64,000 nucleotides of DNA. Origin: an uncultured Acidimicrobiaceae bacterium. GTDB lineage: Bacteria > Actinomycetota > Acidimicrobiia > Acidimicrobiales > Bog-793. The DNA lies in NCBI GenBank assembly GCA_963823945.1, contig CAWGNK010000014.1, positions 93,112-157,111 of the forward strand, written 5' to 3'. Of this stretch, positions 2,085 through 16,946 are shown piece by piece. The translations under genes were made by a program, and so were the position numbers. The stretch's first letter is position 1. The number at the start of each line of letters is the position of its first letter. Below the pieces are notes generated by a model. The model was not told the DNA's origin. It saw only the letters and a list, made by a program, of their open reading frames with translations, and ran no database searches.

Positions 2085-2858
2085 CTACCCCCCCCAGGAG
2101 TTGGCGGCGACGATGGGCCCGGGGGCGGACAGGGCGTTCACCGCCGCGAGGTTGCGCGCCGTCACGCGGCGCAGGCGGGCGAGTCGCGCCGGCGTCAACC
2201 GCTCGCAGACCCAGTCCCAGTGGAGCGAGACGTCCTCGCCGACGGCCAGATCGCCGAGGATCCCGATGCCGTCCGCCCCCCGGCGGACTTGCTCGAGCCG
2301 GAAACCACCGAGCTCGAGCCGGTCGTCGCGGAACTCGAGCGTGCGGTTCCGCACGATGACAGTGTCGCCGTCGAGGGCCTCCACGCGACCCCAGCGGATG
2401 CGGCAGCGGTCGAGGACGGTGAGGGCGGGACCCTCGGTCCCGGAACGCAGCAGGCCGAGCCACGGGTAGACGCCGAAGACGTGGAAGCTGTGGTGGGCGA
2501 CCCCGCCGAGGGGGACCGCGGTGGCGACGGACTCGAAGTCCCGCCCGGTGCGCCGCGCGAATCGGTGTTCGAGCGAGGCGACGAGCGCCGAGGGCGCCAC
2601 CCGGTCGAGCAGCGAGTTACCGACCCAGTAGGCCTCGACGACGCGCTCGTCGAGGGGGTCGGCGATCCCGTTGCACCCCGCGATCAGCTCGAGATAGGGC
2701 CAGGCACCGTCGAAGCGACTGGCGAGGTGGGTGAGCTCGGCGAGATCGCCCGGTTCGCTCGCCGCGCCGAGCAGCGCGGCGTGGTCCGCTGGGCCGCAGT
2801 AGCCGAGTGCGTTTGGCGGGTAGGCGTACCTGGCGAAAAGGACGGGACCCAGCGTCAC
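2085..2858 (-). CDS. DUF6390-like hydrogenase-associated protein
   Basis: LFARYAYPPNALGYCGP, GAWPYL, VVEAYWVGN, HHSFHVF, LDRCRIRWG, SLHWDWVC; GTGA overlap with upstream gene. Confidence 0.8.
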   Translation of the reverse strand: MTLGPVLFARYAYPPNALGYCGPADHAALLGAASEPGDLAELTHLASRFDGAWPYLELIAGCNGIADPLDERVVEAYWVGNSLLDRVAPSALVASLEHRFARRTGRDFESVATAVPLGGVAHHSFHVFGVYPWLGLLRSGTEGPALTVLDRCRIRWGRVEALDGDTVIVRNRTLEFRDDRLELGGFRLEQVRRGADGIGILGDLAVGEDVSLHWDWVCERLTPARLARLRRVTARNLAAVNALSAPGPIVAANSWGG

Positions 2859-3841
2859 GCGCGGGCGACTCCGGGCCACGACCGCACGACCGCCGCGATG
2901 CCCGCGGCGAGCAGCGCGACGCCGATCAGATCGGTGGCGACGCCGGTGTTGGCGCCGAGCCCGGTGTGGTGGACGACGGCGTTCAGGGCGAGCGTGACCG
3001 CCGCCGAGGCGACGAGGACCGAGGTGACGTCGATGGCGCGCGCCCTCGAAAGAGCGGTCATCCAGGTGCCGACGTAGCCGCCCAGCAGACAGCCGGTGAG
3101 GAGCGCCCAACCCAGCCCGCCGAGCCCGAGCCCGACGAGCTCGTGGAACTGGCCGGTCACGGCGAGGTAGCCGAGCAGGACGACCGCCCCGCCGCCCATC
3201 CGCACGAGCGCCAGCGACGCCGGGGAGACGCCGGAAAGGAGCCGTTTGGCGATCACCGTCTCGACCGCCCACAGGAGCGTCGCGCCGAGCACGAGGGCGT
3301 TGCCCGAATTGACGGCGAGATGGCCGGCGCCACCCCAGGCCACCGTGATGCCGACGACGAGCAGGGCGATCGCGGCGAGGTTCCAGCGCCCGACCTTCTC
3401 GCCGAGCAGCGGGAGCGCGGCGAGGGCGACCCAGATGACGAGCGTGTCGTGCAGGAACGTGCCGGAGATTGACGTCGTGCGGGCGAGGCCGTCGAAGAAC
3501 AGGATGAAGGCTGCCCCGCCCCCGATGGCGGCGACGTAGGCGAGCCCAACGGCGCGCGAGAAGCCCCGGAGGGGACGCGCCGTGCTCGGCGCGGCGGCCT
3601 GCGGCGCCGATCCCCGCGCGGGCGACCGGCGGCCCGACACCAGCCAGGCGACGGCGACGAAGGCGGCGATGACGAGCGCCGCGGCGATGTTCTTCGCCGT
3701 CGTGTAGACGGCCGGCGAGCTAAAGCTCTTCACGCCGTAACTGTTGACGAAGACAGAGATGCCGCTGATGATCGCCGTGGCGCCGGCGACGTAGAGACCC
3801 GGCAGGCGGGTCTTGTTCTCTGTCCTGGACGAGGTGGCCAT
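2855..3841 (-). CDS. DMT/EamA family transporter
   Basis: About 10 hydrophobic segments in two EamA-like halves (LLGEK loop); GGAG RBS before ATG at 3841. Confidence 0.85.
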   Translation of the reverse strand: MATSSRTENKTRLPGLYVAGATAIISGISVFVNSYGVKSFSSPAVYTTAKNIAAALVIAAFVAVAWLVSGRRSPARGSAPQAAAPSTARPLRGFSRAVGLAYVAAIGGGAAFILFFDGLARTTSISGTFLHDTLVIWVALAALPLLGEKVGRWNLAAIALLVVGITVAWGGAGHLAVNSGNALVLGATLLWAVETVIAKRLLSGVSPASLALVRMGGGAVVLLGYLAVTGQFHELVGLGLGGLGWALLTGCLLGGYVGTWMTALSRARAIDVTSVLVASAAVTLALNAVVHHTGLGANTGVATDLIGVALLAAGIAAVVRSWPGVARA

Positions 3842-3849
3842 TTCTGCTC

Positions 3850-4098
3850 CTAGTTTGGACTGCTGTTGGAATCCTTGCCCGTGCCCGCCCGGTACTCGGC
3901 GAGAATCGCCTCGGCCTCCGCCCGATCGGCGGGGCCGAGGGCGTAGCCGCTGTGCGCGACGACCCAGTCGCCGGGCTGCAGGGGCTCGCCCTCGTAGGCG
4001 AGCAACGACAGCTGGTGCGCGCTCCCGTCGATGTCTGCGGCGACGACCGTGGCATCGTCGGCGACCGAGACGATCCGGTGGAGGCGGCTCATGCACAC
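3850..4098 (-). CDS. hypC: HypC/HybG/HupF-like hydrogenase chaperone (divergent)
   Basis: N-terminal M-C; GDWVVAHSGYAL resembles HypC GDWVLVHVGFAL; 82 aa; inside hydrogenase operon. Confidence 0.75.
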   Translation of the reverse strand: MCMSRLHRIVSVADDATVVAADIDGSAHQLSLLAYEGEPLQPGDWVVAHSGYALGPADRAEAEAILAEYRAGTGKDSNSSPN

Positions 4099-4111
4099 GG
4101 TCGGTCGCCTC

Positions 4112-4558
4112 TCATGACTCCGTGGCGATGAGATCGGCGATGCACCGGGCGGCGCGTGGGACGGCGTCCTCGACGGCGGGGGAGAGCCCCGTCCCGTCGG
4201 AGAAGTCCTCCCCTTCGATGCCGACGATGACGACGCGGTCCGGCGCGGCCTTCAGCACCTGGGCGAGGCGGACGACGCGGTCGAGGCCGATGGCGTGCGT
4301 GCTCGGGCTCGCCGGCCGGTCGGCGGCGTGCCAGTCGACGAGGCGCACCGTCCCCGGGGCCGCGTCCGAGCGGGTCGCGTCGACGAGCACCGCCAGTTCG
4401 GCGGACTCCCAGCGGCCCAGCAGGTCGAGGGGCTCGCCGATCGGGCCGATGTCGACCGCCGGGGTCGAGGCGGCGACGAGCCGGGCGACCGCCGGTCCCG
4501 CCCCGTCGTCACGGCGGAAGTCGTTGCCGATCCCGGCGACGACGACGCGAGAGGTCAC
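4112..4558 (-). CDS. Hydrogenase maturation endopeptidase
   Basis: GIGNDFRRDDGAG, LVDA and STH motifs; GTGA overlap with large subunit gene. Confidence 0.92.
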   Translation of the reverse strand: MTSRVVVAGIGNDFRRDDGAGPAVARLVAASTPAVDIGPIGEPLDLLGRWESAELAVLVDATRSDAAPGTVRLVDWHAADRPASPSTHAIGLDRVVRLAQVLKAAPDRVVIVGIEGEDFSDGTGLSPAVEDAVPRAARCIADLIATES

Positions 4559-5862
4559 GAGCGGTCGATCGACACGTCGAGGAAGTGGGCCGCGCACGAG
4601 ATGCACGGGTCGTGGTTGCGGACGGCGAGCTCGCAACGGGCCGTCAGCTCGGCGTCGCTCAGGTCCAGGCCCGCCTCGACAACCTGGCGGACGTCGGACT
4701 CGATCGAGAGCTGGTTCTGGGAGGTCGGCGGCATGATGCGCGCCGACTTGATCGTCCCGTCGGCCGCGAGCTCGTAGCGCTGCAGGAGCATGCCCCGCGG
4801 CGCCTCGGTCGCCCCCGCGCCGGCGCGCGCCGCCGGTGGGACCGGGACGGCCGCCGGCTCGAACGGCTCGTACTCCTCGGCGAGGCGGAGCGCCTCGTCA
4901 CAGGCGAAGTAGAGCTCGACGGCGCGGACGATCACGCTCTTGAACGGGTTCCGGCACACCGGGCCGAGCCCCGCCTCGGCGGCCGCGTCGCGGGCGGCCT
5001 GCGGCAGTTTCGCCTGGTTCAGCGCGTACCGGGCGAGGGGCCCGGTGAGGTACGGGTCGCGCCCCCGCAGGCGGGCGTGCAGGGCCGAGGAGCGCTGGAC
5101 GTGCTCCTCGACCGAGAGGGCGGCGAACTCCATCGGCGTGGCGTCGATCCCGTCGGAGGACACGATGCGCCCCGCCTCGATGGCGTAGTGGTCGGGGTGT
5201 GACAGGGCGACGAAGCGGTAGTCCGCCTCGATGTCGGGGAAGTCGAACCCGGCGACGAACGAGATCGTCTCGAGCGACTCCTCACGGGCCCTCTTCAGCG
5301 GCTCGATGAACGCCGCGATCTCCTCGCGGCTGGGCGCCCGGTAGAAGCCGCCGATGCGCACGTTGACCGGGTGGATCGCCCGGCCGCCGACCGCCTCCAT
5401 GAGGTGGTTGCCGACCTTCTTGATCCGCAGTCCCCGTTCGACCGCCGCCGGGTTGAGACCGGCGAGCTCGACGGCATCCCGGCAGCCGAAGAAGTCGGGG
5501 GCGTGGAGCAGGTAGATGTGGAGCGCATGGCTCTGGATCCACTCGCCGCAGTACAGAAGGCGCCGCAGCTTGCCGACCTCGGCGGGGACTTCGACGCCGC
5601 AGGCGTCCTCGATCGCCGCGCAGGCGGACATCTGGTAGGCGACGGGGCAGATCCCGCAGATCCTCGCCGTGATGTCCGGCGGCTCCTCGTGGCCGCGACC
5701 GACGAGGAAGGCCTCGAAAAAGCGCGGTGGCTCGAAGATCTCGAGCTCGACGCGTTCGAGCACCCCGTCGCGCAACGCGACGTGCAGCGACCCCTCCCCT
5801 TCGACACGGGCGAGCCCGTGGACGTCGATCGCGCGGTTCGTACCCTGTGCGCTAGGCGTCAT
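4555..5862 (-). CDS. hyhL: Group 3b [NiFe]-hydrogenase large (alpha) subunit
   Basis: ARVEGEG, L1 RICGICP, EAPRG, L2 DPCISCAAH with cleavable C-terminal tail. Confidence 0.95.
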
Positions 5863-6625
5863 GCTCGAGACTCTCCTTTGAGAACTCGGTTGCGGCGGAG
5901 TTGAACGTCCGAAACAGCCGCGAGATCCCTCGTTCGGACGTGCCGAGCCCGGTGAGCCGTCTCGCGAGCGAGGCGGTGTTCGTGGTGTCCGCCGGCCCGA
6001 AGCAGCCGTAGCAGCCGCGGTTGACGGCGGGGCAGAGGGCCCCGCAGCCCGCCCGCGTCACGGGCCCGAGGCAGGGCGTCCCGTGGGCGACGAGGACGCA
6101 GAGGTTGCCGGCCATCTTGCACTCCTCGCAGACGCTGTAACCCGGGATCACCGGGCGGCGGCCCGCCAGGAGCGCCGTGACGACCTCGACGATCTGGTAG
6201 CGGTTGATCGGGCAGCCGCGCAGCTCGAAGTCGACCTTGACGTAGGACGAGATCGGGCTGGACTCGGCGAGGGTCGAGATGTACTCGGGGTGGGCGTAGA
6301 CGGTCGAGGTGTACTCGCCGACGTCGGCGTAGTTGCGGAGCGCCTGGATGCCGCCCGCCGTCGCGCAGGCGCCGATGGTGACGAGGAGGCCGGACGCCTC
6401 GCGTACGGCGAGGATCCGGTCGGCGTCGTCGGGGGTCGTGATCGAGCCCTCGACGAGCGAGACGTCGTAGGGCCCGTCGATGACGGCGCTCGTCATCTCG
6501 GTGAAGCTCGCGACCTGGACGGCGCCCACGAGAGCGAGCAGTTCGTCCTCGAGGTCGAGGATGCCGAGCTGGCAGCCGTCACAGGAGGCGAACTTCCAAA
6601 CGGCCAGTGTCGGTCGCATCGTCAT
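5852..6625 (-). CDS. hyhS: Group 3b [NiFe]-hydrogenase small (delta) subunit
   Basis: [40 protein letters not shown]...RGCYGCFGP. Confidence 0.93.
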
Positions 6626-7470
6626 CTCTCGATCTCCGTGATCAGCTCCGCCGCGAGCGGCGCGTAGGGCACGACAGGCCCGTCCCGGCACAAAAGAAAC
6701 GGTCCGAGCTGGCAGTGCCCGCAGAGTGCGATCCCGCACTGCATGTTGCGCTCGAGCGAGACCCGGATGTTCTCCGGCGAGACGCCGAGGTCGATGAGCG
6801 AACGCGCGCTGAAGCGCATCATGATCTCGGGCCCGCAGACGAGTGCGACCGCCCCGGCGCCGTCGAAGGGCAGCTCGGTGAGGATCTGGGTCACGACGCC
6901 GACGTGGCCCTTCCAGTCGGCGTCGGCGACGTCGACGGTCACCTCGACGTCGACGCCCATCTCCCGCCAGCGTTCCATCTCCTCGGGGAAGACGATCTGG
7001 TCCGGCAGGCGGGCGCCGACGCGCAGCACGACCTTGCGGTCGGGCGCGGGGTTCTCGGCGAGGTAGCGCATCGCGCCGCGCAAGGGCGCCAGGCCGATGC
7101 CGCCGACGACGACGACGACGTTGTGGCCGGCCAGGCTCTCGAGGCCCCAGTCCGTGCCGAACGGGCCACGCAGACCGACGACGGTGCCGATCTCGGACGA
7201 GGCGAGCGCGTGGCTCACCGCACCGACGTCGCGCACCGTGTGCTCGATGGGGCCCGGCGCACCCGGCGCCGAGCTGATCGAGATGGCGACCTCGCCGACC
7301 CCGAAGGCGGTCAGCATGTTGAACTGCCCCGCCTTGTAGGGCGCGATCGGACGGTCGACCGGCTCGAGCCACAGCGTGGTGATGTCCGAGGTCTCGGTCT
7401 TGCGGTCGACGACCCGGTAGCGGGAGGGGACGAACGGCCCCGGCGACGCGTGCTCGGGGCTAGTCATCAA
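6622..7470 (-). CDS. hyhG: Group 3b hydrogenase gamma subunit (FAD/NAD(P)-binding, 2Fe-2S)
   Basis: [42 protein letters not shown]...CRDGPV. Confidence 0.93.
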
Positions 7471-7927
7471 GGCTGTGCCCGTACAGGTCGAGGAGCCGGA
7501 CGCGGGTCGACTGCAGCCGGCTCAGCAGCACGCCGCTGATGCGCTGCAGCAATGCGTAGCCGAAGACGGAATCGGCGTCGGCCTTGGCCCGCAGGCACGT
7601 GCCGTCGATCGCGACGGCGCCGACCGGGTCGATCGCCACGCCGTCGAACTGCCAGCGGTAGGGCGGCACGAGCCAGGACCAGCCCAGCACGCTGTTCGGG
7701 CCGATGGTCTCGATGACGAGCGGCTTGCCCGAGGGGCGCTGCACCTGCAGGGCGACCCGCCCGCGGCGCAGAAGGTACAGCGTGTCGGCCGGCTCGCCTT
7801 CGACGAGGATGCGCGCCCCGGGTTCGAAGGTGACGTTCTGCGCGCAGCCGACGGCGAGCTGGATCGTCGAGTCCGGCAGACCGGCGAACAACGAGTTCTT
7901 GGCGATGAGTTCACTCATCTCTTCCAT
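7460..7927 (-). CDS. Stand-alone cyclic nucleotide-binding domain protein
   Basis: F.PG..I..EGEPADTLYLL..G.V; GWSWLVPPYRW; 155 aa with no C-terminal HTH. Confidence 0.85.
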   Translation of the reverse strand: MEEMSELIAKNSLFAGLPDSTIQLAVGCAQNVTFEPGARILVEGEPADTLYLLRRGRVALQVQRPSGKPLVIETIGPNSVLGWSWLVPPYRWQFDGVAIDPVGAVAIDGTCLRAKADADSVFGYALLQRISGVLLSRLQSTRVRLLDLYGHSLDD

Positions 7928-7932
7928 GACGC

Positions 7933-9084: not shown

Positions 9085-9090
9085 GCCGAC

Positions 9091-9215
9091 ACGTTAGGGC
9101 GCCGCCTCGCCGGGTGGAAGGGCCGGTCGACCCATTTGCGGCACAGTTTGCGGGCCAAAGACCGGGGGGCTTGTGACCATCGACCCTGGAGGGCAGGGCG
9201 GTCCGACGCGACCAT
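9091..9215. promoter_or_regulatory. Divergent promoters with three DosR/DevR-like boxes
   Basis: Boxes GGGCCGGTCGACCC (9120-9133), CGGGCCAAAGACCG (9151-9164), GTGACCATCGACCC (9173-9186); -10-like TAACGT (minus, 9096-9091) and GACCAT (plus, 9210-9215). Confidence 0.6.
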
Positions 9216-9287
9216 CAGAGCAGCGAGTGACCAGGCCGTGGGCGGGTGCTCGGTGAAGCGTCCGGTGGACGGACAGCGAGGCTGGCG

Positions 9288-9899
9288 ATGTTCCAGGTTC
9301 GGATCCATGGGCGGGGCGGACAGGGCGTGGTCACGGCGGCGGAGCTGCTCGCCGTGGCGGCGTTCAACGACGGTCGGCACGCCCAGGCCTTCCCGAGCTT
9401 CGGTTCCGAGAGGACCGGTGCCCCGGTCGTCTCGTTCTGCCGCATCAGCGAGCGCGAGATCCGGACGCGTGCGCCGATCGACGAACCCGACGCGCTCGTG
9501 ATCCAGGACGCGACGCTGCTCCGCCAGGTGGGCCTGTTCGCCGGTCTAAGGCCCCAGGGCTGGGTGCTCGTCAACACGACGAAGTCCCTCGCGTCGACCG
9601 GCGTCGCGGGATCCGTGTCCGGACTGCCCGCCAACCACGTGCTCGAGCTGCGGGCGACGGAGATCGCCCTGCGGCACCTCGGCCGGCCGTTGCCGAACGC
9701 GGTGCTCCTCGGCGGCTTTGCCGCGCTCACCGGGGCGGTCTCGCTCGCGGCCGTCGTCACCGCGATCGAGGACCGCTTCTCGGGGGCGATGCGTGACGGG
9801 AATGTCGCCGCCGTGACCGAGGCGTTCAACCTGACCCGCGAGATGGTGGGGGCATGTGCGACTCGCGAGAGGAGTGCCGTCGGTGCTCCGCCAGATTGA
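9288..9899 (+). CDS. porC: Pyruvate/2-oxoacid:acceptor oxidoreductase gamma subunit
   Basis: MFQVRIHGRGGQGVVTAAE, QAFPSFGSERTGAPV. Confidence 0.93.
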   Translation: MFQVRIHGRGGQGVVTAAELLAVAAFNDGRHAQAFPSFGSERTGAPVVSFCRISEREIRTRAPIDEPDALVIQDATLLRQVGLFAGLRPQGWVLVNTTKSLASTGVAGSVSGLPANHVLELRATEIALRHLGRPLPNAVLLGGFAALTGAVSLAAVVTAIEDRFSGAMRDGNVAAVTEAFNLTREMVGACATRERSAVGAPPD

Positions 9900-11136: not shown

Positions 11137-11146
11137 GGATCCCGCC

Positions 11147-12157
11147 GTGACCGAGCAGACGACGTTCTACCAGGTGGGCAGCCTCGCGGTGGGCAACCGC
11201 CTCGTCGACCCGCACCTGCGCACGGTGCAGTCCGACCGCCTCCGCCCGAACGCGCTCACCTCGGGCCACCGGGCCTGCCAGGGGTGCGGCGAGGCGCTCG
11301 GCGCCCGCTTCGTCCTCGACGCGGCGATGGCCGTGACCGACGGGCAGTTGATCGTCGTCAACGCCACGGGGTGCCTGGAGGTCTTCTCGACGCCGTATCC
11401 CGAGACCTCGTGGCAGGTCGCCTGGATGCACTCGCTGTTCGGCAACACCGCCGCCGTCGCCACCGGCGTCGCCGCGGCCCTCAAGGTGCGTGGCGACACC
11501 GCCACCCGGGTCGTCGCCCAGGCGGGCGACGGGGGAACCGTCGACATCGGTTTCGGCTGCCTCTCGGGGATGTTCGAACGCAACGACGACGTCCTGTTCG
11601 TCTGCTACGACAACCAGGCCTACATGAACACCGGGGTGCAGCGCTCCGGATCGACGCCCGCCGCGGCGCGCACCGCCACCACCGAGGCCCGGGGCCGCGA
11701 GCCCGGCAACGCCTTCGGCCAGGGCAAGAACCTCCCGGCCCTCGCCGTGGCGCACGAGATCCCGTACGTCGCGACCGCCTCCGTCGCCTACCTCCACGAC
11801 CTCGAGGCGAAAGTCGGCCGGGCGATGGCGCTGCACGGCGCGCGCTACCTGCACGTCCTCGTGCCGTGCCCGCTCGGCTGGGGTGCGGCGTCCCGGGACA
11901 CGATCCGCCTCGCCCGCCTCGCCTGCGAGACGGGTCTGTTCCCCCTCTTCGAGGCGGCCGACGGGGAGATCCTCTCGGCGACGCCGATCCGGCACCGCGA
12001 GCCCGTCGAGGCGTACCTGCGTCCCCAGCGGCGTTTCGCCCACCTCTTCGCCGACCCGCCGCGCACCGACGACATCGCCCGCATCCAGGCGATCGCCGAC
12101 CGCAACATCCGCCGTTTCGACCTGCTGGGCGAGCGGGCCGGCAAGGGGTCGCGGTGA
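11147..12157 (+). CDS. porB: Pyruvate/2-oxoacid:acceptor oxidoreductase beta subunit (TPP-binding)
   Basis: GHRACQGCG, ATGCLEV, GDGG...DNQAYMNTGVQRS TPP motif, PCPLGW. Confidence 0.93.
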   Translation: MTEQTTFYQVGSLAVGNRLVDPHLRTVQSDRLRPNALTSGHRACQGCGEALGARFVLDAAMAVTDGQLIVVNATGCLEVFSTPYPETSWQVAWMHSLFGNTAAVATGVAAALKVRGDTATRVVAQAGDGGTVDIGFGCLSGMFERNDDVLFVCYDNQAYMNTGVQRSGSTPAAARTATTEARGREPGNAFGQGKNLPALAVAHEIPYVATASVAYLHDLEAKVGRAMALHGARYLHVLVPCPLGWGAASRDTIRLARLACETGLFPLFEAADGEILSATPIRHREPVEAYLRPQRRFAHLFADPPRTDDIARIQAIADRNIRRFDLLGERAGKGSR

Positions 12158-13781
12158 GCGAGCACCCGTTCGCGATCACGCTCGACGCCGGGTCGAGCCG
12201 GGAGAACCGCACCGGGTCGTGGCGGGTCGAGCGGCCCGTCTACGCCGACCGCCTGCCGCCGTGCAACGACGCCTGCCCGGCCGGCGAGAACATCCAGCGC
12301 TGGCTGTACGAAGCCGGGGCCGGGGACTACGAGGCGGCGTGGCGCGGGCTCGTCGAGGACAACCCGCTGCCCGCGACCTGCGGGCGGGTCTGCTTCCACC
12401 CCTGCGAGGCGGCCTGCAACCGGGGCCAGCTCGACGAGGCCGTCGGCATCCACGCCGTCGAGCGGTTCCTTGGCGACACGGCGATCGCGCACGGCTGGCG
12501 GCTGCCCGAGTGCGTCCCCGCGACGGGACGGCGGGTGCTCGTCGTCGGGTCCGGCCCGTCGGGGCTCTCCGCCGCCTACCACCTCCGCCGGGCCGGGCAC
12601 GAGGTCGTCGTGCGCGAGGCGGCGCCCAGGCCGGGGGGATGCTGCGTTACGGCATCCCGAAGTACCGGCTGCCCCGCGAGGTGATCGACGCCGAGATCTC
12701 GGCGATTCAGGACCTCGGGGTCGAGATCCGCTGCGATGCGGGCGTGGCCGACATCGCCGCGGCGATGGCGGAGGGCTCTTTCGACGCGGTGTACCTCGCC
12801 CTCGGCGCCCAGCTGTCGCACCGCGTGCAGATCCCGGCCGCCGACTCGGCCCGCCTGCTGGACGCGCTCGCCTTCCTGGCGGGCACGGAGACGGCGGAGC
12901 CGGCGGCGATCGGCCGCCGCGTCGTCGTCTACGGCGGCGGCGACACCGCGATGGACGCGGCCCGCAGCGCCAAGCGGCTCGGCGCGACCGACGCCGTGAT
13001 CGTCTACCGGCGCAACCGCCAGAAGATGCCCGCCCACGCCGCCGAGGTCGCCGAGGCGCTCGCCGAGGGGGTGACGGTGCGCTGGATGTCGACGATCTCG
13101 CGAGTGGACGGCCACAAGGTCCTCGTCGAGAAGATGGAGCTCGATTCCGCCGGTTTCCCGCAGCCGACCGGAGAGTTCGCCGACCTCGACGCCGACTGCG
13201 TGATCCTGGCGCTCGGCCAGGACGCCGATCTCGCGCCGCTCGCGGCCCTCGAGGGCGTCGAGGTGCGCGACGGCCTCGTGGTGGTCGACGCCCAGATGAT
13301 GACCGGCCGCCCCGGCGTCTTCGCCGGGGGCGACATGGTCCCGGCCGAGCGCACCGTCACCGTCGCCGTCGGGCACGGCAAGCGCGCCGCCCGCAACATC
13401 GACCGTTGGCTCGGGGGCGAAGCCGAGGGGCCGACGCCCCGTCACGAGCTCGCCTCGTTCGAGACGCTGAACACGTGGTACTACGCGGACGCCCCCCGCA
13501 CGGCCCAGCCCGAGCTGGACGCCGAGCTGCGCCAGGCCGGGTTCGAGGAGGTCGTGGGCGGGCTCGACGACTCCAAGGCGCTTTTCGAGGCGCGCCGCTG
13601 CCTGTCGTGCGGCAACTGTTTCGAGTGCGACAACTGCTATGGAATCTGCCCCGACAACGCGGTGTCTAAGCTCGGGCCCGGCGAGCGGTACGCGTTCGAC
13701 TACGACTACTGCAAGGGCTGCGGCATCTGCGTCGCCGAATGCCCCTGCGGCGCGATCGTCATGGTGCCGGAGCTGATCTGA
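12154..13781 (+). CDS. PorD-like ferredoxin domain fused to GltD/SudA-like FAD/NAD(P) oxidoreductase; 1-nt frameshift near 12633-12638
   Basis: TGSWRVERPV, PCNDACP, GRVCFHPCE, GSGPSGLSAA in one frame; GGMLRYGIP, GGGDTAMD, YRR, CFECDNCYGICP, DYDYCKGCGICVAECP in the next; break at a G6 run. Confidence 0.85.
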
Positions 13782-13905: not shown

Positions 13906-15144
13906 ATGATGGCTGATCGGGCGGAACCGTCCGCGGCGTCACAGGCGCCAAAGAAGGGCCCCACGGAAGCCGCCGAGCCTTCGGTGGCCGTCGTGCGCGA
14001 GGCGGCCGAAGGTGAGCGGCGGGTCGCAGTCGTCCCCGACGACGTCGGCAAGCTCCACCAGGCGGGCTTCGCCGTCATGGTCGAGAAGAACGCGGGCCGG
14101 CAGGCGTGGTTCTTCGATGACGCCTACGTCCAGGCGGGGGCGACCGTCGCCGACCGGGCGAAGTGCCTGGCGAAATCCGACGTCGTCCTCTACGTGGGGC
14201 GGCCCTCGGCCGCCGACGTGAAGAAGCTGCGTCCCGGCCAGGTCGTCGTCGGCCTGCTCGCCCCGCTGGTCGACCCGGGGTGCGCGGGCCTGCTCGCGGG
14301 ACACGGCGTCACCGCCGTGAGCCTCGACAACCTGCCGCGCACCCTCAGCCGCGCCCAGTCGATGGACGCGCTGAGCTCACAGGCGAACATCGCCGGCTAC
14401 AAGGCCGCCCTCGTGGCGGCGGGCGCCTACGGGCGCTACTTCCCGCTCCTCATGACGGCGGCCGGGACCGCCCGTCCCGCCGAGGTGCTCGTGCTCGGCG
14501 CCGGGGTGGCGGGGCTGCAGGCGATCGCGACCTGCCACCGGCTCGGCGCCATCGTCCGTGGCTACGACGTGCGTCCCGAGGCGAAGGAGCAGGTCGAGTC
14601 GCTCGGTGGTCGCTTCGTCGAGCTGAAATCGGTCGGCGAGGCGGTCGGCGAGGGCGGCTACGCCCGGGCCCTCACCGCCGAGGAGACCAAGGCGCAGCAG
14701 GAGGAGCTGAACGGGCACATCGCCCAGCACGACGTCGTCATCACGACGGCGCAGGTGCCGGGCCGGCGCCCGCCGTTGCTCGTCACGGCGGGGGCCGTGG
14801 GGGCGATGCGTGCCGGGTCGGTGATCGTCGACATGGCGGCGAGCGAGCTCGGCGGCAACGTCGAGGGGTCCCGTCCCGACGACACGGTCGTCACGGAGCA
14901 CGGGGTGACGATCATCGGGGCCGGCAGCCTTCCCTCGACGATGGCGGGCGCGGCGTCGACGGCGTACTCGCACAACATCTGCGCGCTTGTCGCCCACCTC
15001 GCCGCCGACGGGAAGGTGGCCATCGACCTCACCGACGAGATCCAGGCCGGTGTGGTCATCACCCACGCAGGAAAGGTGGTCAACCCCGCGACCGCGGAAC
15101 TGGCGGGGGCGGCCACCGGCAAACCACTAGCGAACGGAGCCTGA
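13906..15144 (+). CDS. pntA: NAD(P) transhydrogenase alpha subunit part 1
   Basis: GERRVA, RAQSMDALSSQANIAGY, GAGVAGLQA, GEGGYAR, DMAASELGGN. Confidence 0.95.
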   Translation: MMADRAEPSAASQAPKKGPTEAAEPSVAVVREAAEGERRVAVVPDDVGKLHQAGFAVMVEKNAGRQAWFFDDAYVQAGATVADRAKCLAKSDVVLYVGRPSAADVKKLRPGQVVVGLLAPLVDPGCAGLLAGHGVTAVSLDNLPRTLSRAQSMDALSSQANIAGYKAALVAAGAYGRYFPLLMTAAGTARPAEVLVLGAGVAGLQAIATCHRLGAIVRGYDVRPEAKEQVESLGGRFVELKSVGEAVGEGGYARALTAEETKAQQEELNGHIAQHDVVITTAQVPGRRPPLLVTAGAVGAMRAGSVIVDMAASELGGNVEGSRPDDTVVTEHGVTIIGAGSLPSTMAGAASTAYSHNICALVAHLAADGKVAIDLTDEIQAGVVITHAGKVVNPATAELAGAATGKPLANGA

Positions 15145-15148
15145 GTCG

Positions 15149-15475
15149 ATGGATACGAGTCTCATCACTGACGTCACGATCTTCGTGCTCAGTCTTCTCG
15201 TGGGGTTCGAGGTGATCTCCAAGGTCCCCCAGACGCTCCACACGCCGTTGATGTCGGCCGCGAACTCCATTCACGGGGTCGTGATCGTGGGCGCCTTCCT
15301 CATCGCCTCGACGGCGCACAACACGGTCGGCTACGTGCTCGCCTTCATCGCGGCGGCGTTCGCGGGCATGAACGTCGTCGGCGGCTACACGGTCACCGAC
15401 CGGATGCTCCAGATGTTCCAGCGTCGTCCGGCCCCGGCCGCCAAGGAAGCGACCGAGAAGGGGGGTAACTCCTGA
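15149..15475 (+). CDS. pntA: NAD(P) transhydrogenase alpha subunit part 2
   Basis: LHTPLMSAANSIHG, NVVGGYTVTDRMLQMF. Confidence 0.95.
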   Translation: MDTSLITDVTIFVLSLLVGFEVISKVPQTLHTPLMSAANSIHGVVIVGAFLIASTAHNTVGYVLAFIAAAFAGMNVVGGYTVTDRMLQMFQRRPAPAAKEATEKGGNS

Positions 15476-16946
15476 TGGGCGCCCTCACCGCATCTCTCAC
15501 GTTGCACCTCGCCTCCCCGTCGTACGCCTTCGAGGACGGCATCACGCTCATCTTGTTGCTCGCCGCGACGTGCTTCGTCATCGGCCTCCACCTGATGAAC
15601 GCGCCACCGACGGCGAACCACGGGAACCGGCTGTCGGCGCTCGGCATGGCCGTCGCCGTCGCGGCGACCCTCGCCCTCATCGCCCACGACGGGACGATCA
15701 CGACGACCGGCTGGCTGATGCTGGCCGTGGGCGGCGTCCTCGGCTCCGCCATCGGGCTGTACCTCGCGCGCTCGGTCGAGATGACGGCGATGCCGCAGCT
15801 GGTGAGCCTGTTCAACGCCGTCGGCGGCGGCGCGGCGGCGCTCGTCGCGATCGCCGACTTCGTGCGCCTCGCGGGGATCGCCGGCGCGCCGACGATCGCG
15901 GCGAGGATCTCGGTGACGAGCGTCCTCGACGTCGTGATCGGCGCCGTGACGCTGTCGGGCTCGATCGTGGCGGCGGGCAAGCTGCAGGGCTTCATCCCGT
16001 CGAACCCGGTCGTCATCCCCGGCGGCCGCTTCATCAACCTCGTGCTGGCCCTCGGGCTGTGCGCCGGGACCGGGTACATCCTGTCGGGGGCGAACAGCGA
16101 CATCACGCTGATCGGGATCGCCGTCGCCGCCCTCGTCATGGGCGTGATCATGGTCATGCCGATCGGCGGCGCGGACATGCCGGTCGTGATCTCGCTGCTG
16201 AACGCCTTCACCGGGACGGCCGTCGCGATGGCGGGGTTCGTCATCAACAGCCTCGGGCTGATCATCGCCGGCGCCCTCGTCGGCGCCTCCGGCAGCATCC
16301 TCACGAAGCTGATGGCCGACGCGATGAACCGCTCGATCCTCAACATCGTCGCCGGCGGGTTCGGCACCGGCGACACGGCGAGCGTGATCGGCGCCGGTGC
16401 CACGGGCCAGGTGCGCTCGGTCGGGGCGGACGACGTCGCGATCCAGCTCGCCTACGCGCAGAAGGTGATCATCGTCCCGGGCTACGGGTTGGCCGCCGCC
16501 CACGCCCAGCACTCGGTGAAGGAGCTGGCGGACCTGTTGGAAAAGCGCGGGGTCGAGGTGTCCTACGCCATCCACCCGGTAGCCGGCCGGATGCCGGGCC
16601 ACATGAACGTCCTGCTCGCCGAGGCCGAGGTTCCCTACCAGGAACTGAAGACGATGGAGGAGATCAACCCGGAGTTCCCCGCGCCGACGTCGCCCTGGTG
16701 ATCGGGGCGAACGACGTGACGAATCCGGCCGCCCGCCGGCCCGGCAACGCCGTCTCGGGCATGCCGATCCTCGACGTCGACAAGGCGAAGAGCATCATCG
16801 TCATCAAGCGCTCGATGGGCTACGGCTACGCCGGCATCGACAACGAGCTCTACACCGACCCGAAGACGGGCATGTTCTTCGCCGACGCGCAGGCCGGCCT
16901 GCGGGCCATCACCGCGGCGGTGAAGACCCTGGTGGGGGTGGACTGA
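15475..16946 (+). CDS. pntB: NAD(P) transhydrogenase beta subunit; 1-nt frameshift near 16677-16680
   Basis: MPQLVSLFN, GGADMPVVISLLN, HPVAGRMPGHMNVLLAEA; C-terminus ADVALVIGANDVTNPAA...GYAGIDNELY continues in shifted frame after a C4 run. Confidence 0.92.

What the first reader, a model, noticed from the sequence alone, without database searches (positions are those of the whole stretch)
2085..16946. Divergent regulon predicted to form a ferredoxin-free pyruvate to NADPH to H2 fermentation module
Seen: one ~200-bp intergenic region separates a complete group 3b [NiFe]-hydrogenase operon (leftward) from porCAB, a PorD-flavoprotein fusion and pntAB (rightward). Established: group 3b hydrogenases couple NAD(P)H to H2; Mycobacterium smegmatis uses a DosR-controlled 3b enzyme for fermentative H2 release under hypoxia; PntAB interconverts NADH and NADPH across the membrane. 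Inference: pyruvate electrons pass through the fused flavoprotein to NADP+ and then to H2, while PntAB channels glycolytic NADH into the same pool. Run in reverse, the module could support H2-driven pyruvate synthesis. I do not know of this compact arrangement being characterised in Acidimicrobiia.
Basis: partly seen in the sequence, partly recalled or inferred. Interest (0 to 1): 0.75.

Follow-up and report, generated by a model that had tools for sequence, protein, structure and literature searches.

The report
Pyruvate-NADPH-hydrogenase gene island lacking maturation genes
An uncultured soil and peat actinobacterium places a pyruvate-type enzyme with a built-in NADPH module back to back with an NADPH-linked hydrogenase, probably as a low-oxygen electron-disposal unit, yet its genome lacks the genes thought essential for building such a hydrogenase.

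Summary
A 203-bp spacer (9085-9287) separates hyhB-cNMP-hyhG-hyhS-hyhL-protease-hypC'-EamA-DUF6390 (leftward) from porC-porA-porB-(PorD split by a GltD/Nfn-like FAD-NADPH module)-pntAA-pntAB-pntB (rightward). Two apparent frameshifts (12633-12638, 16677-16680) are homopolymer assembly errors, because independent contigs carry the missing base.

The four-gene por unit occurs in at least 533 relatives. The 3b hydrogenase lies within 10 kb of it in 18 of 80 loci, in four gene orders, and ADP-forming acetyl-CoA synthetase and GAPDH genes are frequent neighbours. A DosR-like box lies upstream of hyhB in 21 of 44 independent loci and of porC in 8 of 66, against 0 in coding controls. The exact divergent layout with pntAB is confined to two genera. 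H2-driven pyruvate synthesis is unlikely on energetic grounds.

The main caveat is that no hypD, hypE or hypF was found in this genome or in most of its genus. Across the order, an EamA permease inside the operon and absence of HypD coincide (20 with EamA and no HypD, 28 the reverse). Six well-supported independent contrasts on the HyhL tree mostly agree, and none goes the opposite way.

This scan had already noted the chimeric subunit, the cNMP gene and the EamA-DUF6390 pair in other genomes. No biochemistry exists for any of them.

The parts
2085..2858 (-). DUF6390 protein (257 aa). It has an N-terminal helical domain and a HypC-like C-terminal OB domain. Cys25, His127, Cys156 and His217 are invariant.
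   Evidence: Pfam PF19927 at 3.6e-92. The GTG start overlaps the EamA stop. 24-sequence alignment. hhalign to the HypC-like set gives E 2e-4 and probability 46%. The best of 48,161 chains is HypC 2z1c_A, with Z 5.5 and rmsd 1.8 A over 71 residues.
2855..3841 (-). EamA/DMT-family permease (328 aa) inserted between the HypC-like gene and DUF6390.
   Evidence: Pfam PF00892, two stretches. ATG at 3841 with a Shine-Dalgarno sequence 8 nt after the hypC' stop. Its presence coincides with absence of HypD.
3850..4098 (-). HypC-like chaperone (82 aa). It starts Met-Cys.
   Evidence: PF01455 at 1.2e-09 and 38.6 bits. TIGR00074 scores 30.9 bits, below its cut-off of 48. Alignment.
4112..4558 (-). Hydrogenase maturation endopeptidase.
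   Evidence: TIGR00072 at 1.9e-30 and 105.8 bits, over its cut-off. The GTG at 4558 overlaps the hyhL stop.
4555..5862 (-). [NiFe]-hydrogenase large subunit, 3b type (435 aa). It holds [10 protein letters not shown] and DPCISCAAH followed by a 9-residue tail.
   Evidence: The best NCBIfam families are ShyA and HydA. The best solved relatives are sulfhydrogenase I alpha 9nez (1.4e-58, full length) and 5yxy. Sequence. The motifs are identical in the 7 genomes of the genus that were compared (G000-G004, G006, G007).
5852..6625 (-). Hydrogenase small (delta) subunit.
   Evidence: ShyD and HydD are the best families. PF01058. ATGA overlap with the hyhG stop (frames).
6622..7467 (-). Gamma subunit (AsrB/PyrK-like, FAD, [2Fe-2S], NAD(P)H).
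   Evidence: AsrB, PRK08345, ShyC and HydG families. The start ATG overlaps the cNMP gene stop.
7460..7927 (-). Stand-alone cNMP-binding-domain protein (155 aa, no DNA-binding domain found). It is the most conserved gene of the operon.
   Evidence: PF00027 at 4.4e-11. Own ATG 5 nt after the hyhB stop. dN/dS 0.03-0.12. It lies between hyhB and hyhG in 28 of 32 order-wide loci that show both neighbours.
7933..9084 (-). Beta subunit (AsrA-like iron-sulfur protein).
   Evidence: ShyB, HydB and AsrA families. PF17179.
9085..9287 (.). 203-bp divergent control region. It holds a TAACGT -10 element (9091-9096, minus strand) 6 nt from the hyhB GTG, which suggests a leaderless transcript. The weak hyh-side box is at 9118-9133 (minus strand) and the strong por-side box at 9173-9188 (plus strand). 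A GACCAT -10 candidate lies at 9210-9215.
   Evidence: Sequence. Conserved blocks in 9 genomes. Under a matrix built only from 6 boxes of other genera, the por-side box scores 18.0 bits and ranks 4th in the genome. The hyh-side box scores 8.4 bits, a value that 453 genome positions reach.
9288..9899 (+). porC (gamma subunit of a pyruvate/2-ketoisovalerate-type 2-oxoacid oxidoreductase).
   Evidence: TIGR02175 scores 188 bits, over its cut-off of 81. The PorC equivalogs score below their cut-offs. The start MFQVRIHGRGGQG is conserved.
9856..11136 (+). porA (alpha subunit). The start lies between 9856 and 9883.
   Evidence: PorA_Arch scores 440 bits against a cut-off of 550. PF01855 and PF17147.
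11147..12157 (+). porB (beta, TPP and [4Fe-4S] subunit). The start is approximate.
   Evidence: PRK11865 PorB scores 319.6 bits against a cut-off of 405. Matches in relatives begin at residue 40-46 of the long ORF. GTG at 11147.
12154..13781 (+). Chimeric delta subunit. In order it has a PorD N-terminal arm, an Fe-S domain, an FAD/NADP(H) module of the GltD/Nfn/Stn type, and a PorD two-cluster ferredoxin core. The record lacks one G in the run 12633-12638.
   Evidence: NF009410 scores 222.6 bits (N part) and 503.6 bits (C part). PorD_Arch positions 6-31 match residues 7-32, and positions 27-84 match the C-terminus. The best solved relatives are 9bov, 9n5u, 8oh5 and 5jca_L. The extra G appears in all covering contigs. 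The gene is in one frame in 15 relatives.
13906..15144 (+). pntAA. A 124-nt spacer containing a GC-rich hairpin precedes it.
   Evidence: NF006942 scores 387.9 bits, over its cut-off of 383. Spacer sequence.
15149..15475 (+). pntAB (4-TM part of the alpha subunit).
   Evidence: PF12769 at 7.6e-33.
15475..16946 (+). pntB. The record lacks one C in the run 16677-16680. A 12-bp GC hairpin follows at 16966-16997.
   Evidence: PF02233 profile positions 3-375 and 374-455 fall in two frames. An extra C behind 16676 appears in contigs of 4 runs. The gene is contiguous in relatives. Hairpin.

Best explanation
The locus is a redox-overflow (low-oxygen type) module of an uncultured Acidimicrobiales bacterium from soil and peat.

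The rightward operon encodes a pyruvate-type 2-oxoacid oxidoreductase. Its small two-cluster delta subunit has been opened and a GltD/Nfn-like Fe-S/FAD/NADP(H) module inserted. Electrons from the TPP site would then run through an unbroken chain of iron-sulfur clusters to FAD and on to NADP+, without free ferredoxin. This path is inferred from the architecture.

PntAB, encoded downstream, equilibrates this NADPH pool with NADH across the membrane. Its direction is not known.

The leftward operon encodes a five-protein NAD(P)H-linked group 3b [NiFe]-hydrogenase that can vent NADPH electrons as H2, as shown for Mycobacterium smegmatis Hyh. Both promoters carry a box resembling the DosR site, so the two arms are probably switched on together.

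How the hydrogenase gets its Fe(CN)2CO centre here is unexplained. hypCDEF were not found, and an EamA permease plus DUF6390 sit in their place.
For: - **Subunit families and the 3b type:**
- **Metal ligands:** the NiFe cysteines and the cleavable tail are intact, and dN/dS is 0.12-0.23, like its neighbours.
- **PorD split by the flavin module:**. The NADPH-site motif is shared with Nfn and Stn modules.
- **porCAB-chimera unit:** it is seen wherever the flank allows among the best 80 of at least 533 relatives.
- **Linkage to hyh:** within 10 kb in 18 of 80 loci. Four loci are divergent, five are co-directional upstream, eight are convergent downstream and one is co-directional downstream.
- **Other neighbours:** ADP-forming acetyl-CoA synthetase-like genes in 11 of 80 loci and GAPDH in 7 of 80.
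- **Layout:** conserved in 9 genomes of 2 genera.
- **Regulatory box:** it lies 22-23 nt upstream of a -10 element on both sides. A matrix built from 6 boxes of other genera finds it (10 bits or more) upstream of hyhB in 21 of 44 independent loci and of porC in 8 of 66, against 0 of 44 and 0 of 66 in coding controls. In reverse orientation the same upstream stretches score in 8 of 44 and 6 of 66. The published DosR motif is given.
- **Precedent:** M. smegmatis Hyh is fermentative and DosR-controlled (passages).
- **Alternative pyruvate route:** G000 also has lipoamide-type 2-oxoacid dehydrogenase genes, so the por enzyme need not be the aerobic route.
Against: - No hypD, hypE, hypF or hypA was found in G000 (92.5% complete). 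The same holds for G001, G004 (2 contigs) and G010, and no hypD was found in G040, whose record is titled 'chromosome: 1'.
- The hyh-side box of this window is weak under the independent matrix: 8.4 bits, a score that 453 genome positions reach.
- Other top-scoring boxes in G000 lie near unrelated genes (a solute-binding protein, prepilin peptidase with a PLP decarboxylase, Nramp) or inside coding sequence, so no regulon could be defined.
- No DosR/DosS orthologue was identified. The genome has only 3 HisKA_3 kinases and 4 GerE regulators.
- Linkage is not universal: 62 of 80 loci show no hydrogenase within reach. Many of those contigs are short, and many are proteobacterial.
- All NCBIfam equivalog scores for PorA, PorB and PorC are below their cut-offs, so the 2-oxoacid substrate is not settled.
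- NADP versus NAD preference is inferred only from motif similarity.
Confidence: 0.55

Rival explanations
1. The hydrogenase arm is not an active H2-evolving enzyme in this organism. Without HypCDEF the large subunit cannot receive Fe(CN)2CO. The complex would then be either a relic or used for another NADPH-linked reaction of its AsrA/AsrB-like beta and gamma subunits, for example reduction of a sulfur compound, with the EamA permease moving that compound.
For: HypD, HypE and HypF were not found in G000, G001, G004 or G010. In an evenly drawn sample of the order, 12 of 39 genomes with HyhL have no HypD. The beta and gamma subunits match anaerobic sulfite reductase AsrA and AsrB. EamA-family proteins are metabolite carriers; this is family knowledge, not tested here.
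Against: All four metal-ligand cysteines, the C-terminal tail, the specific endopeptidase and a Met-Cys HypC-like gene are kept. dN/dS of hyhL (0.12-0.23) matches its neighbours, and it is no higher against HypD-less genomes than against the HypD-bearing sister species G002. G002 has a 93% identical HyhL, a full hypF/hypE-hypD-hypC island and no other [NiFe] large subunit, so the enzyme type is a true Hyp client.
Confidence: 0.2
2. The two arms are neighbours without a special functional tie. Each is an independent hypoxia or redox gene set that shares only the cellular NADPH pool, and the divergent layout is a lineage-specific accident.
For: The exact layout is limited to genus g1 and G010. 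The three other genomes that hold both a Fus-family gene and the hydrogenase (G009, G021, G023) keep them on different contigs, and only G021 shows porCAB-Fus there. Four genomes have por without hyh and four have hyh without a Fus orthologue. The proteobacterial por units show no hydrogenase nearby.
Against: Linkage recurs in four different gene orders across Acidimicrobiales, Solirubrobacterales/Thermoleophilia and other Actinomycetota (18 of 80 loci). This is hard to explain by inheritance of a single accident. Both arms also carry the same kind of box.
Confidence: 0.15
3. The por-pnt operon is mainly an energy-conserving route. NADPH made at very low potential from pyruvate drives PntAB backwards (NADPH to NAD+), pumping protons out and feeding NADH to respiration. 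The hydrogenase is only a safety valve.
For: pntAB follows the chimera gene in the same orientation in the 9 genomes with the full layout, although the G005 contig ends early in pntB. It lies next to por in two Streptomyces-type loci that have no hydrogenase in reach (L100 and L108). PntAB is reversible (recalled textbook knowledge).
Against: pntAB is adjacent in only 5 of 80 loci. A 124-nt spacer with a GC-rich hairpin separates it from the chimera gene, so co-transcription is not shown. Direction cannot be read from sequence.
Confidence: 0.12
4. The flavin of the chimeric subunit bifurcates or confurcates electrons as in Nfn and Stn enzymes, with a second branch to another partner such as the PyrK-like HyhG. 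The module would then couple pyruvate, NAD(P)H and H2 in one energy-coupled reaction, and could also run towards pyruvate synthesis.
For: The closest solved relatives of the flavin module are bifurcating enzymes: 9n5u NfnA, 8oh5, 5jca_L NfnI, and also 9bov. HyhG belongs to the same PyrK/NfnA-like family as the Nfn small subunit.
Against: No NfnA-like gene lies in the por operon. The por unit works without a hydrogenase nearby in most genomes. GltD-like modules in glutamate synthase and dihydropyrimidine dehydrogenase do not bifurcate (review passages).
Confidence: 0.05

Closest known systems
Mycobacterium smegmatis Hyh (Hyd3), the DosR-controlled fermentative group 3b [NiFe]-hydrogenase
   Same: It is a cytosolic 3b enzyme used to dispose of reductant as H2 when oxygen runs out, under a DosS/T-DosR switch (bioRxiv 10.1101/2023.09.11.557286, passages read). 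A DosR-like box is present here and upstream of many related hyhB genes.
   Different: In the passages read, that work does not mention a pyruvate oxidoreductase or a transhydrogenase. Here the hydrogenase is tied to an NADP-wired oxidoreductase and PntAB, hypCDEF were not found, and EamA-DUF6390 sit in the operon. Whether M. smegmatis has these genes was not checked here.
Pyrococcus furiosus sulfhydrogenase I (PDB 9nez, 9e15) and Thermococcus kodakarensis cytosolic NiFe hydrogenase (5yxy)
   Same: These are the best solved relatives of the large subunit (E 1.4e-58 to 4.9e-56, aligned end to end). They share the alpha, delta, beta and gamma families.
   Different: They are archaeal. All scores here are far below the equivalog cut-offs (235 bits against 700). 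The operon here has an extra cNMP-domain protein.
Four-subunit (archaeal-type) pyruvate:ferredoxin oxidoreductase PorABCD
   Same: The alpha, beta and gamma subunits match PorA, PorB and PorC best. Both ends of the fourth protein are PorD.
   Different: The delta subunit is interrupted by about 450 residues of Fe-S/FAD/NADP(H) module. The gene order is C-A-B-delta. A 2026 review of PFOR diversity (PMC13768988) has no occurrence of 'glutamate synthase' or 'flavoprotein' in its main text, by term search rather than a full read.
GltD-like NADPH modules of Nfn/Stn transhydrogenases (PDB 5jca_L, 8oh5_C, 9n5u_A, 9bov_A)
   Same: These are the closest solved relatives of the inserted module. The GGG-x-TAMDAAR...YRR motif stretch aligns, and as in 9bov, 8oh5 and 9n5u the cysteine segment lies behind the flavin domain.
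   Different: No NfnA/StnB-type partner is present and the module is wired into an oxidoreductase subunit. Bifurcation is not implied.
2-Oxoglutarate:NADP+ oxidoreductase of Azoarcus evansii, and pyruvate:NADP+ oxidoreductase of Euglena and Cryptosporidium
   Same: A 2-oxoacid oxidoreductase hands its electrons to NADP+ through an attached flavoprotein. These cases are recalled from memory, and the first is also named in earlier scan notes. Neither paper was seen here.
   Different: They use other flavoprotein types and other fusion architectures, as far as I recall. No sequence comparison was made here.
Frankia group 3b hydrogenase synton (hyhG-cNMP gene-hyhB-hupS-hupL-protease; PMC11879354)
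   Same: The cNMP-domain gene sits between the two diaphorase genes, and the synton carries no genes for Fe(CN)2CO or Ni insertion (passages read).
   Different: In Frankia this synton was never the only hydrogenase in a genome, so Hyp proteins can be borrowed. G000 has a single [NiFe] large subunit and no hypD, hypE or hypF. The paper's text does not mention EamA. Its supplementary tables were not read.

Membership tests
Group 3b [NiFe]-hydrogenase (HyhBGSL / sulfhydrogenase type) | The large subunit is closest to 3b references rather than to 3a, 3c, 3d or group 1/2. | tested here: met
   NCBIfam: ShyA 235 bits and HydA 220 bits, against VhuA 137 and FrhA 134. PDB: 9nez at 1.4e-58, against Mvh 5odc at 3.3e-44, Frh at 4.6e-39 and Hox at 1.8e-38. 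No HydDB classifier was available.
Group 3b [NiFe]-hydrogenase (HyhBGSL / sulfhydrogenase type) | Hetero-tetramer genes are present: alpha and delta plus AsrA-like beta and AsrB/PyrK-like gamma. | tested here: met
   All four are present and adjacent. A fifth gene, the cNMP-domain protein, is extra.
Group 3b [NiFe]-hydrogenase (HyhBGSL / sulfhydrogenase type) | Two cysteine pairs ligate Ni-Fe, and there is a C-terminal extension cut by a dedicated endopeptidase. | tested here: met
   [10 protein letters not shown] and DPCISCAAH plus a 9-residue tail. These are identical in the 7 genus genomes compared. Endopeptidase TIGR00072 scores over its cut-off. The canonical motif patterns themselves are recalled from memory.
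Group 3b [NiFe]-hydrogenase (HyhBGSL / sulfhydrogenase type) | HypC, HypD, HypE and HypF are available in the genome for the Fe(CN)2CO centre. | tested here: not met
   Only a HypC-like gene is present. HypD, the HypF finger and HypE over its cut-off were not found in G000. At the syntenic site where G002 has hypF, hypE, hypD and hypC, G000 has a different island of lower G+C. The genome is 92.5% complete, so absence is probable but not proven.
Group 3b [NiFe]-hydrogenase (HyhBGSL / sulfhydrogenase type) | NAD(P)H-coupled H2 evolution or uptake. | not testable with these tools
   This needs an enzyme assay.
Four-subunit pyruvate:ferredoxin oxidoreductase (PorABCD) | Alpha, beta and gamma subunits of the pyruvate/2-ketoisovalerate subfamily. 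| tested here: met
   TIGR02175 scores 188 bits against a cut-off of 81. PorA_Arch, PorB and PorC are the best-scoring families.
Four-subunit pyruvate:ferredoxin oxidoreductase (PorABCD) | Pyruvate as the substrate (equivalog level). | tested here: inconclusive
   PorA_Arch scores 440 against 550, PorB 320 against 405 and PorC 193 against 225. All are below their curated cut-offs.
Four-subunit pyruvate:ferredoxin oxidoreductase (PorABCD) | A free delta subunit of about 80-105 residues that passes electrons to soluble ferredoxin. | tested here: not met
   The delta subunit is split. PorD_Arch positions 6-31 lie at the N-terminus and positions 27-84 at the C-terminus of a protein of about 542 residues.
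NCBIfam NF009410 (PRK12771, 'NAD(P)-binding protein', 566 positions) | A full-length match over the curated cut-off of 516 bits. | tested here: met
   Profile positions 14-171 score 222.6 bits and positions 174-565 score 503.6 bits, in the two frames of the record. The simple sum exceeds the cut-off. The family has no tested function.
Proton-translocating transhydrogenase PntAB (three-gene form) | The dI (pntAA), 4-TM dII part (pntAB) and dII/dIII (pntB) genes are present in a row. | tested here: met
   NF006942 scores 387.9 bits, over its cut-off of 383. PF12769 and PF02233 cover profile positions 3-455 across the repaired frame.
DosR-type hypoxia regulon | A palindromic box like the published DosR motif lies at a promoter-proximal position. 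| tested here: inconclusive
   The por-side box GTGACCATCGACCCTG scores 18 bits and ranks 4th in the genome. The hyh-side box GGGTCGACCGGCCCTT scores 8.4 bits. The boxes share the GGGAC / G-CCC half-sites of the motif printed in PMC2275270 but differ in the right half.
DosR-type hypoxia regulon | A DosR/DosS-like two-component pair is present in the genome, and the genes are induced by hypoxia. | not tested
   Three HisKA_3 kinases and four GerE regulators were located. Their orthology was not resolved. Induction needs RNA data.
Nfn/Stn electron-bifurcating transhydrogenases | A GltD-like subunit is paired with a PyrK-like (NfnA) or equivalent second-branch subunit. | tested here: not met
   There is no such gene in the por operon. 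The only PyrK-like gene nearby is hyhG, in the divergent operon.
HypC/HybG/HupF chaperones (for the C-terminal half of DUF6390) | An OB-fold with a C-terminal helix and a cysteine at the position of HypC Cys2. | tested here: inconclusive
   hhalign aligns DUF6390 residues 156-238 with HypC-like residues 2-74, at E 2e-4 and probability 46%, and Cys156 falls on Cys2. The top structural match is HypC 2z1c_A, with Z 5.5 and rmsd 1.8 A over 71 of 71 residues. Z is in the range the tool calls middling. The cysteine is internal, not N-terminal.

The most novel reading that the evidence does not exclude
Soil Actinomycetota hold a route for building an active [NiFe]-hydrogenase that does not need HypD, HypE or HypF. 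An EamA-family permease encoded inside the hydrogenase operon, acting with the HypC-like protein and DUF6390 (an internal-cysteine HypC-like domain joined to a Cys/His-bearing helical domain), would bring in or handle a precursor that replaces the canonical Fe(CN)2CO pathway.

The comparative signal is as follows:
- 20 operons have EamA and all lack HypD in their genome. 28 operons lack EamA and all have HypD.
- On the HyhL tree there are six independent contrasts on well-supported branches. Over 200 random pairings, HypD followed EamA in 5.5 of them on average, did not differ in 0.5, and never went the opposite way (sign test median p 0.06).
- Inside this genus, the one species with a hypFEDC island (G002) is the one that lacks EamA.

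This rests.
Probability: 0.3. Interest if true: 0.9.

Novelty: new variant of a known kind. Interest (0 to 1): 0.66.

Why it matters
1. **A possible unstudied route from pyruvate to NADPH.** If the chimeric delta subunit does what its architecture says, a widespread but unstudied enzyme turns pyruvate-type 2-oxoacids straight into NADPH. At least 533 relatives were found, including cultured Streptomyces, Kribbella and Aquabacterium and the wastewater organism Accumulibacter. This would change how redox budgets are drawn for many soil and wastewater bacteria.

2. **A testable carbon-side partner for fermentative H2.** Its repeated linkage to the 3b hydrogenase, acetyl-CoA synthetase (ADP-forming) and GAPDH genes gives a concrete partner for the fermentative H2 production known from M. 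smegmatis, in abundant uncultured peat and soil Actinomycetota.

3. **A challenge to a maturation rule.** The coincidence of an operon-borne permease with absence of hypD challenges the rule that HypCDEF are indispensable for every [NiFe]-hydrogenase. It also points to the exact genes to test.

Tried and rejected
- **Pseudogene reading of the flavoprotein gene and pntB.** Rejected, because independent contigs hold the missing G and C and relatives are in frame.
- **cNMP ORF as a shifted tail of hyhB.** Rejected. hyhB ends with TAG and matches its profile to the end, and the cNMP gene has its own ATG.
- **Regulon definition from the box in G000.** The other top hits lie by a solute-binding protein, a prepilin peptidase with a PLP decarboxylase, and Nramp, or inside coding sequence. 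No regulon could be named.
- **Sigma-70 and terminator pattern scan.** It gave 1 promoter-like and 3 terminator-like sites, no more than in shuffles, and was uninformative for this high-G+C DNA.
- **RNA-library run X20.** Its contigs (90-96% alike, so from a related strain) lie on hydrogenase-arm genes and on pntAB/pntB. The por genes have little cover. Contigs cannot show transcription or its absence, so nothing is concluded.
- **Foldseek of the DUF6390 model against the PDB.** Only OB-fold ribosomal proteins appeared, at E 4e-3 or worse. The N-terminal helical domain found no clear relative.
- **Phenylglyoxylate dehydrogenase (Pad) as the closest family.** The Pad subunit models score below the Por models, and PadF scores only 29.8 bits on the ferredoxin core.
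- **H2-driven pyruvate synthesis.** Set aside on recalled textbook potentials: about -500 mV for the acetyl-CoA+CO2/pyruvate couple against -320 mV for NADPH.
- **Literature searches with no hits:** 'DUF6390'; NiFe + hydrogenase + maturation + EamA + HypC; the phrase set for pyruvate NADP+ oxidoreductase with glutamate synthase small subunit.
- **Paper not held.** Andersson and Roger 2002 (PMC118040), which may bear on GltD gene neighbourhoods, is not in the library.
- **Not run:** Complex prediction was not used, because no binding claim is made. No HydDB classification was possible.
- The matrix was then built from stored coordinates instead.

Full report
**What is in the sequence.** The region has 70-75% G+C, so I called genes from third-position G+C and from family matches.

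On the minus strand, in order of transcription, lie:
- hyhB (7933-9084)
- a 155-residue protein that is only a cyclic-nucleotide-binding domain (7460-7927)
- hyhG (6622-7467)
- hyhS (5852-6625)
- hyhL (4555-5862)
- a maturation endopeptidase (4112-4558)
- an 82-residue HypC-like protein (3850-4098)
- an EamA/DMT permease (2855-3841)
- a DUF6390 protein (2085-2858)

Most junctions overlap by 4-11 bases or are a few bases apart.

On the plus strand lie:
- porC (from the conserved ATG at 9288)
- porA
- porB
- a gene of about 542 codons that starts at the GTG at 12154, overlapping the porB stop
- after 124 nt, pntAA, pntAB and pntB, which ends at 16946
- a 12-bp GC hairpin at 16966-16997

The spacer between the arms is 203 bp.

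**Two apparent frameshifts are errors of the record.** The flavoprotein gene changes frame inside a run of six G (12633-12638), and pntB inside a run of four C (16677-16680).
- I laid contigs of four public runs on 2000-17000. Every contig covering the first site in X1 (the possible source), X5 and X6 (other studies) has one more G.
- At the second site, all depth in X1 (18 of 18) and in the RNA-library run X20 (12.9 of 12.9) has one more C. In X5 it is 72.6 of 143.6, and in X6 92.7 of 327.
- In 15 relatives the flavoprotein gene is a single open frame, and pntB is contiguous.

Both genes are intact in nature. The record probably carries other homopolymer errors.

**The organism.** The window is part of a 2.18-Mb, 14-contig genome estimated at 92.5% complete. 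Records of the same genus are titled Acidimicrobiales or Acidimicrobiaceae MAGs (L033 and L057 coincide with G005 and G003). Near-identical DNA is held by soil and peat metagenome runs of 16 studies.

**The hydrogenase arm.**
- The large subunit matches the two Pyrococcus sulfhydrogenase alpha models best (235 and 220 bits, against 137 or less for the 3c and 3a models). Its best solved relatives are sulfhydrogenase I (9nez, 1.4e-58, aligned over residues 12-428) and the Thermococcus cytosolic enzyme 5yxy. Mvh, Frh and Hox follow.
- The small subunit and the AsrA-like and AsrB-like partners match the corresponding sulfhydrogenase subunits. This is the group 3b make-up.
- The metal-binding cysteines ([10 protein letters not shown] and DPCISCAAH) and a nine-residue tail for the endopeptidase are present. 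They are unchanged in the seven genomes of the genus that were compared.
- The cNMP-domain gene is a regular part of such operons. It lies between hyhB and hyhG in all 14 related loci that show the operon, and in 28 of the 32 order-wide loci that show both neighbours.
- It is the most conserved gene of the operon, with dN/dS 0.03-0.12.
- A Frankia study notes the same gene and calls it a small regulator (PMC11879354, passages). Earlier notes of this scan read it as an accessory subunit. I did not test that.

**The por arm.** PorC, PorA and PorB match the archaeal-type pyruvate/2-ketoisovalerate family best, but all equivalog scores are below their cut-offs, so the substrate is not settled.

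The fourth protein matches NF009410 over its whole length across the two frames.
- Its first 32 residues match positions 6-31 of PorD, and its last 60 match positions 27-84 of PorD. It is therefore a PorD into which about 450 residues have been inserted.
- The insert is a GltD-like module. It has an Fe-S domain (PF14691), an FAD site and an NADP(H)-type second dinucleotide fold.
- Its closest solved relatives are 9bov, 9n5u (NfnA), 8oh5 and NfnI 5jca_L. The stretch GGGDTAMDAARSAKRLGA...VYRRNRQKMPA aligns with them, and as in them a cysteine segment lies behind the flavin domain.
- A review describes GltD-like modules as devices that connect NAD(P)H to a partner through low-potential [4Fe-4S] clusters. 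In dihydropyrimidine dehydrogenase such a module works together with a C-terminal eight-iron ferredoxin domain (PMC8097209, passages).

The simplest reading is an unbroken cluster chain from the TPP site to FAD and NADP+. This is inference, because no assay exists. The genome has a second, paralogous GltD-ferredoxin gene next to a 1210-residue single-chain PFOR. It also has lipoamide-type 2-oxoacid dehydrogenase genes.

**Are the two arms tied together?** In 40 relatives, the full layout recurs in all eight genomes of the genus and in one further genus. G002 lacks the EamA gene, and the G005 contig ends within the protease gene and within pntB. Elsewhere in the family:
- three genomes (G009, G021, G023) hold both the hydrogenase and a Fus-family gene, but on different contigs. 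Only G021 shows porCAB-Fus there. G023's copy sits beside a PorA-like gene (29% identical), as the paralogue does in G000, and G009's contig ends at the gene;
- four genomes have por without the hydrogenase;
- four genomes have the hydrogenase without a Fus orthologue.

A scan of one genome per species found at least 533 relatives of the chimera, from Acidimicrobiales, Solirubrobacterales/Thermoleophilia, Streptomyces, Kribbella, Rhodocyclaceae and Alphaproteobacteria. In the best 80 loci:
- the porCAB-chimera unit is present wherever the flank allows;
- the 3b operon lies within 10 kb in 18 loci, of which 4 are divergent, 5 co-directional upstream, 8 convergent downstream and 1 co-directional downstream;
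- pntAB is adjacent in 5 loci;
- an ADP-forming acetyl-CoA synthetase-like gene is adjacent in 11 loci, and GAPDH in 7.

Many contigs are short, so these are lower bounds, and two of the 18 belong to the window's own genus. Linkage kept through several gene orders argues for a shared function. The particular divergent form with pntAB is a lineage trait.

**Shared control.**
- The spacer holds TAACGT six bases before the hyhB GTG, which suggests a leaderless transcript. It also holds two blocks conserved in nine genomes.
- The blocks are one motif in opposite orientations, each 22-23 nt upstream of a -10-like hexamer.
- The same motif lies upstream of unlinked hyhB and porC genes of other genera.
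- It resembles the palindromic DosR site printed in PMC2275270.
- A matrix made only from six boxes of other genera ranks the por-side box (9173-9188) fourth among all positions of the genome. It gives the hyh-side box (9118-9133) only 8.4 bits, which 453 positions reach.
- In loci that did not enter the matrix and are outside the genus, a box of 10 bits or more lies within 250 nt upstream of hyhB in 21 of 44 and of porC in 8 of 66. Coding controls give 0 of 44 and 0 of 66. Scanned in reverse orientation, the same upstream stretches score in 8 of 44 and 6 of 66.
- I could not name the regulator. Other high-scoring sites in G000 do not form a recognisable regulon.

Co-regulation by a DosR-like factor is thus likely for the gene families, and moderately supported for this window.

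**The missing maturation genes.**
- Family searches read in six frames found no HypD, no HypF zinc finger, no HypE over its cut-off and no HypA in G000. Nor were HypD, HypE or HypF found in G001, G004 (two contigs) or G010. G001 does hold a HypA match, beside a second hydrogenase-like fragment.
- G040, a genome whose record is titled 'chromosome: 1', carries the same kind of operon, and no HypD was found in it.
- Only G002 in the genus has hypF, hypE, hypD and hypC. They sit at a site where G000 has a different island of 62-66% G+C, holding a GH15 hydrolase, an LprI-like protein and a heliorhodopsin.
- G002 has no other [NiFe] large subunit, and its HyhL is 93% identical to the window's. The same enzyme is therefore served by Hyp proteins in one species and has none in its sister.
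- In an evenly drawn sample of 301 genomes of the order, 39 have HyhL and 86 have HypD. The latter tally includes five unpublished genomes that play no other part here. 27 genomes have both, and 12 have HyhL alone.
- Of those 12, 11 carry EamA-DUF6390 behind the protease or hypC', and the twelfth contig ends at hyhL. None of the 27 with HypD has EamA there, although seven have DUF6390.
- Over all loci with both traits known, the table is 20 (EamA present, no HypD) against 28 (no EamA, HypD present), with no true exception. One apparent exception, L143, has EamA but fell under a length filter.
- On a HyhL tree of 56 rows the EamA state needs at least 11 changes. On well-supported branches there are six independent pairs. 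Over 200 random pairings, HypD followed EamA in 5.5 of them on average, did not differ in 0.5, and never went the other way (sign test median p 0.06).
- hyhL evolves under the same constraint with or without Hyp (dN/dS 0.12-0.23).
- DUF6390 has a HypC-like rear domain, whose Cys156 falls on HypC Cys2, behind a helical domain with invariant Cys25 and His127.

I cannot explain how the enzyme is matured. The pattern suggests that the permease compensates for the loss of HypDEF, and the rival is that the enzyme is inactive or re-purposed here.

- Pyruvate-type 2-oxoacid to NADPH: likely, inferred from the architecture.
- NADPH to H2 through the 3b enzyme: established for the family in M. smegmatis. 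Here it depends on the unresolved maturation problem.
- PntAB as the link between NADH and NADPH: plausible, but the opposite direction (NADPH to NADH with proton export) fits equally well, and adjacency is rare.
- Reverse operation as an H2-driven pyruvate synthase: unlikely without bifurcation, for which the operon lacks the second-branch subunit.

**Novelty and limits.** Earlier notes of this scan, on other genomes, had already described the chimeric delta subunit, a divergent oxidoreductase/hydrogenase locus in a soil Acidimicrobiales genome, the cNMP gene and the EamA-DUF6390 pair. I re-tested parts of these here. In the held literature I found no description of the chimera or of the EamA/HypD pattern. 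These were the searches and the term look-up in the 2026 PFOR review. Subscription papers, the supplements of PMC11879354 and those of the bioRxiv preprint were not seen and may bear on this. Everything functional here is inference from sequence and gene context.

Noticed in passing
G000:C3:193661-198803 (outside the window; locus L030:3659-8864): A second, paralogous GltD-ferredoxin protein (544 aa, 58% identical to the window's) sits directly upstream of, and overlaps, a 1210-residue single-chain PFOR. An EamA gene lies nearby. The paralogue pair is conserved across the genus.
   Followed up: partly
G000:C14:327554-334410 (outside the window; locus L032): A 6.9-kb island of lower G+C (62-66%) holds a GH15 hydrolase, an LprI-like protein and a heliorhodopsin. 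It occupies the syntenic site where the sister species G002 has hypF, hypE, hypD and hypC.
   Followed up: partly
window 12633-12638 and 16677-16680: Two single-base homopolymer deletions occur within 15 kb of the record. Other genes of the window and genome are likely to carry similar false frameshifts.
   Followed up: yes
window 1642-2016 (minus strand): A 125-146-residue ORF with no family match lies 68 nt after the DUF6390 stop. Homologues (42-58% identical) exist in the genus, but there they lie about 0.2-1.2 kb beyond DUF6390.
   Followed up: no
window 13782-13905: A 124-nt spacer between the chimera gene and pntAA holds a GC-rich hairpin and a strong AAGGAGG ribosome site. It could be an attenuator or a processing site, so co-transcription of pntAB with por is open.
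   Followed up: no
window 18400-22212: This is the start of a cell-division and cell-wall cluster: a 148-codon ORF at 18400-18843 (probably mraZ, not scanned against families), the MraW/RsmH methylase, a small ORF, and an FtsI-type penicillin-binding protein.
   Followed up: no
L019:9457-12279 and L018:13636-16578 (relatives G014, G015): The acetyl-CoA synthetase (ADP-forming)-like genes beside por carry an N-terminal GNAT acetyltransferase domain. A PAS-GAF-HisKA_3 kinase (L019:12490-13965) and an acg-like nitroreductase (L018:11646-12638) are also neighbours of por units.
   Followed up: partly
G001:C5:800526-802817: One genome of the genus has a second, partial hydrogenase-like large-subunit match (42% identical over residues 5-180) with a HypA gene beside it, near a further GltD-like gene.
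   Followed up: no
G000:C8:57561-58211: An ORF made of a collagen-like Gly-Pro-Ser/Thr triplet repeat gave spurious hits to the box matrix.
   Followed up: no
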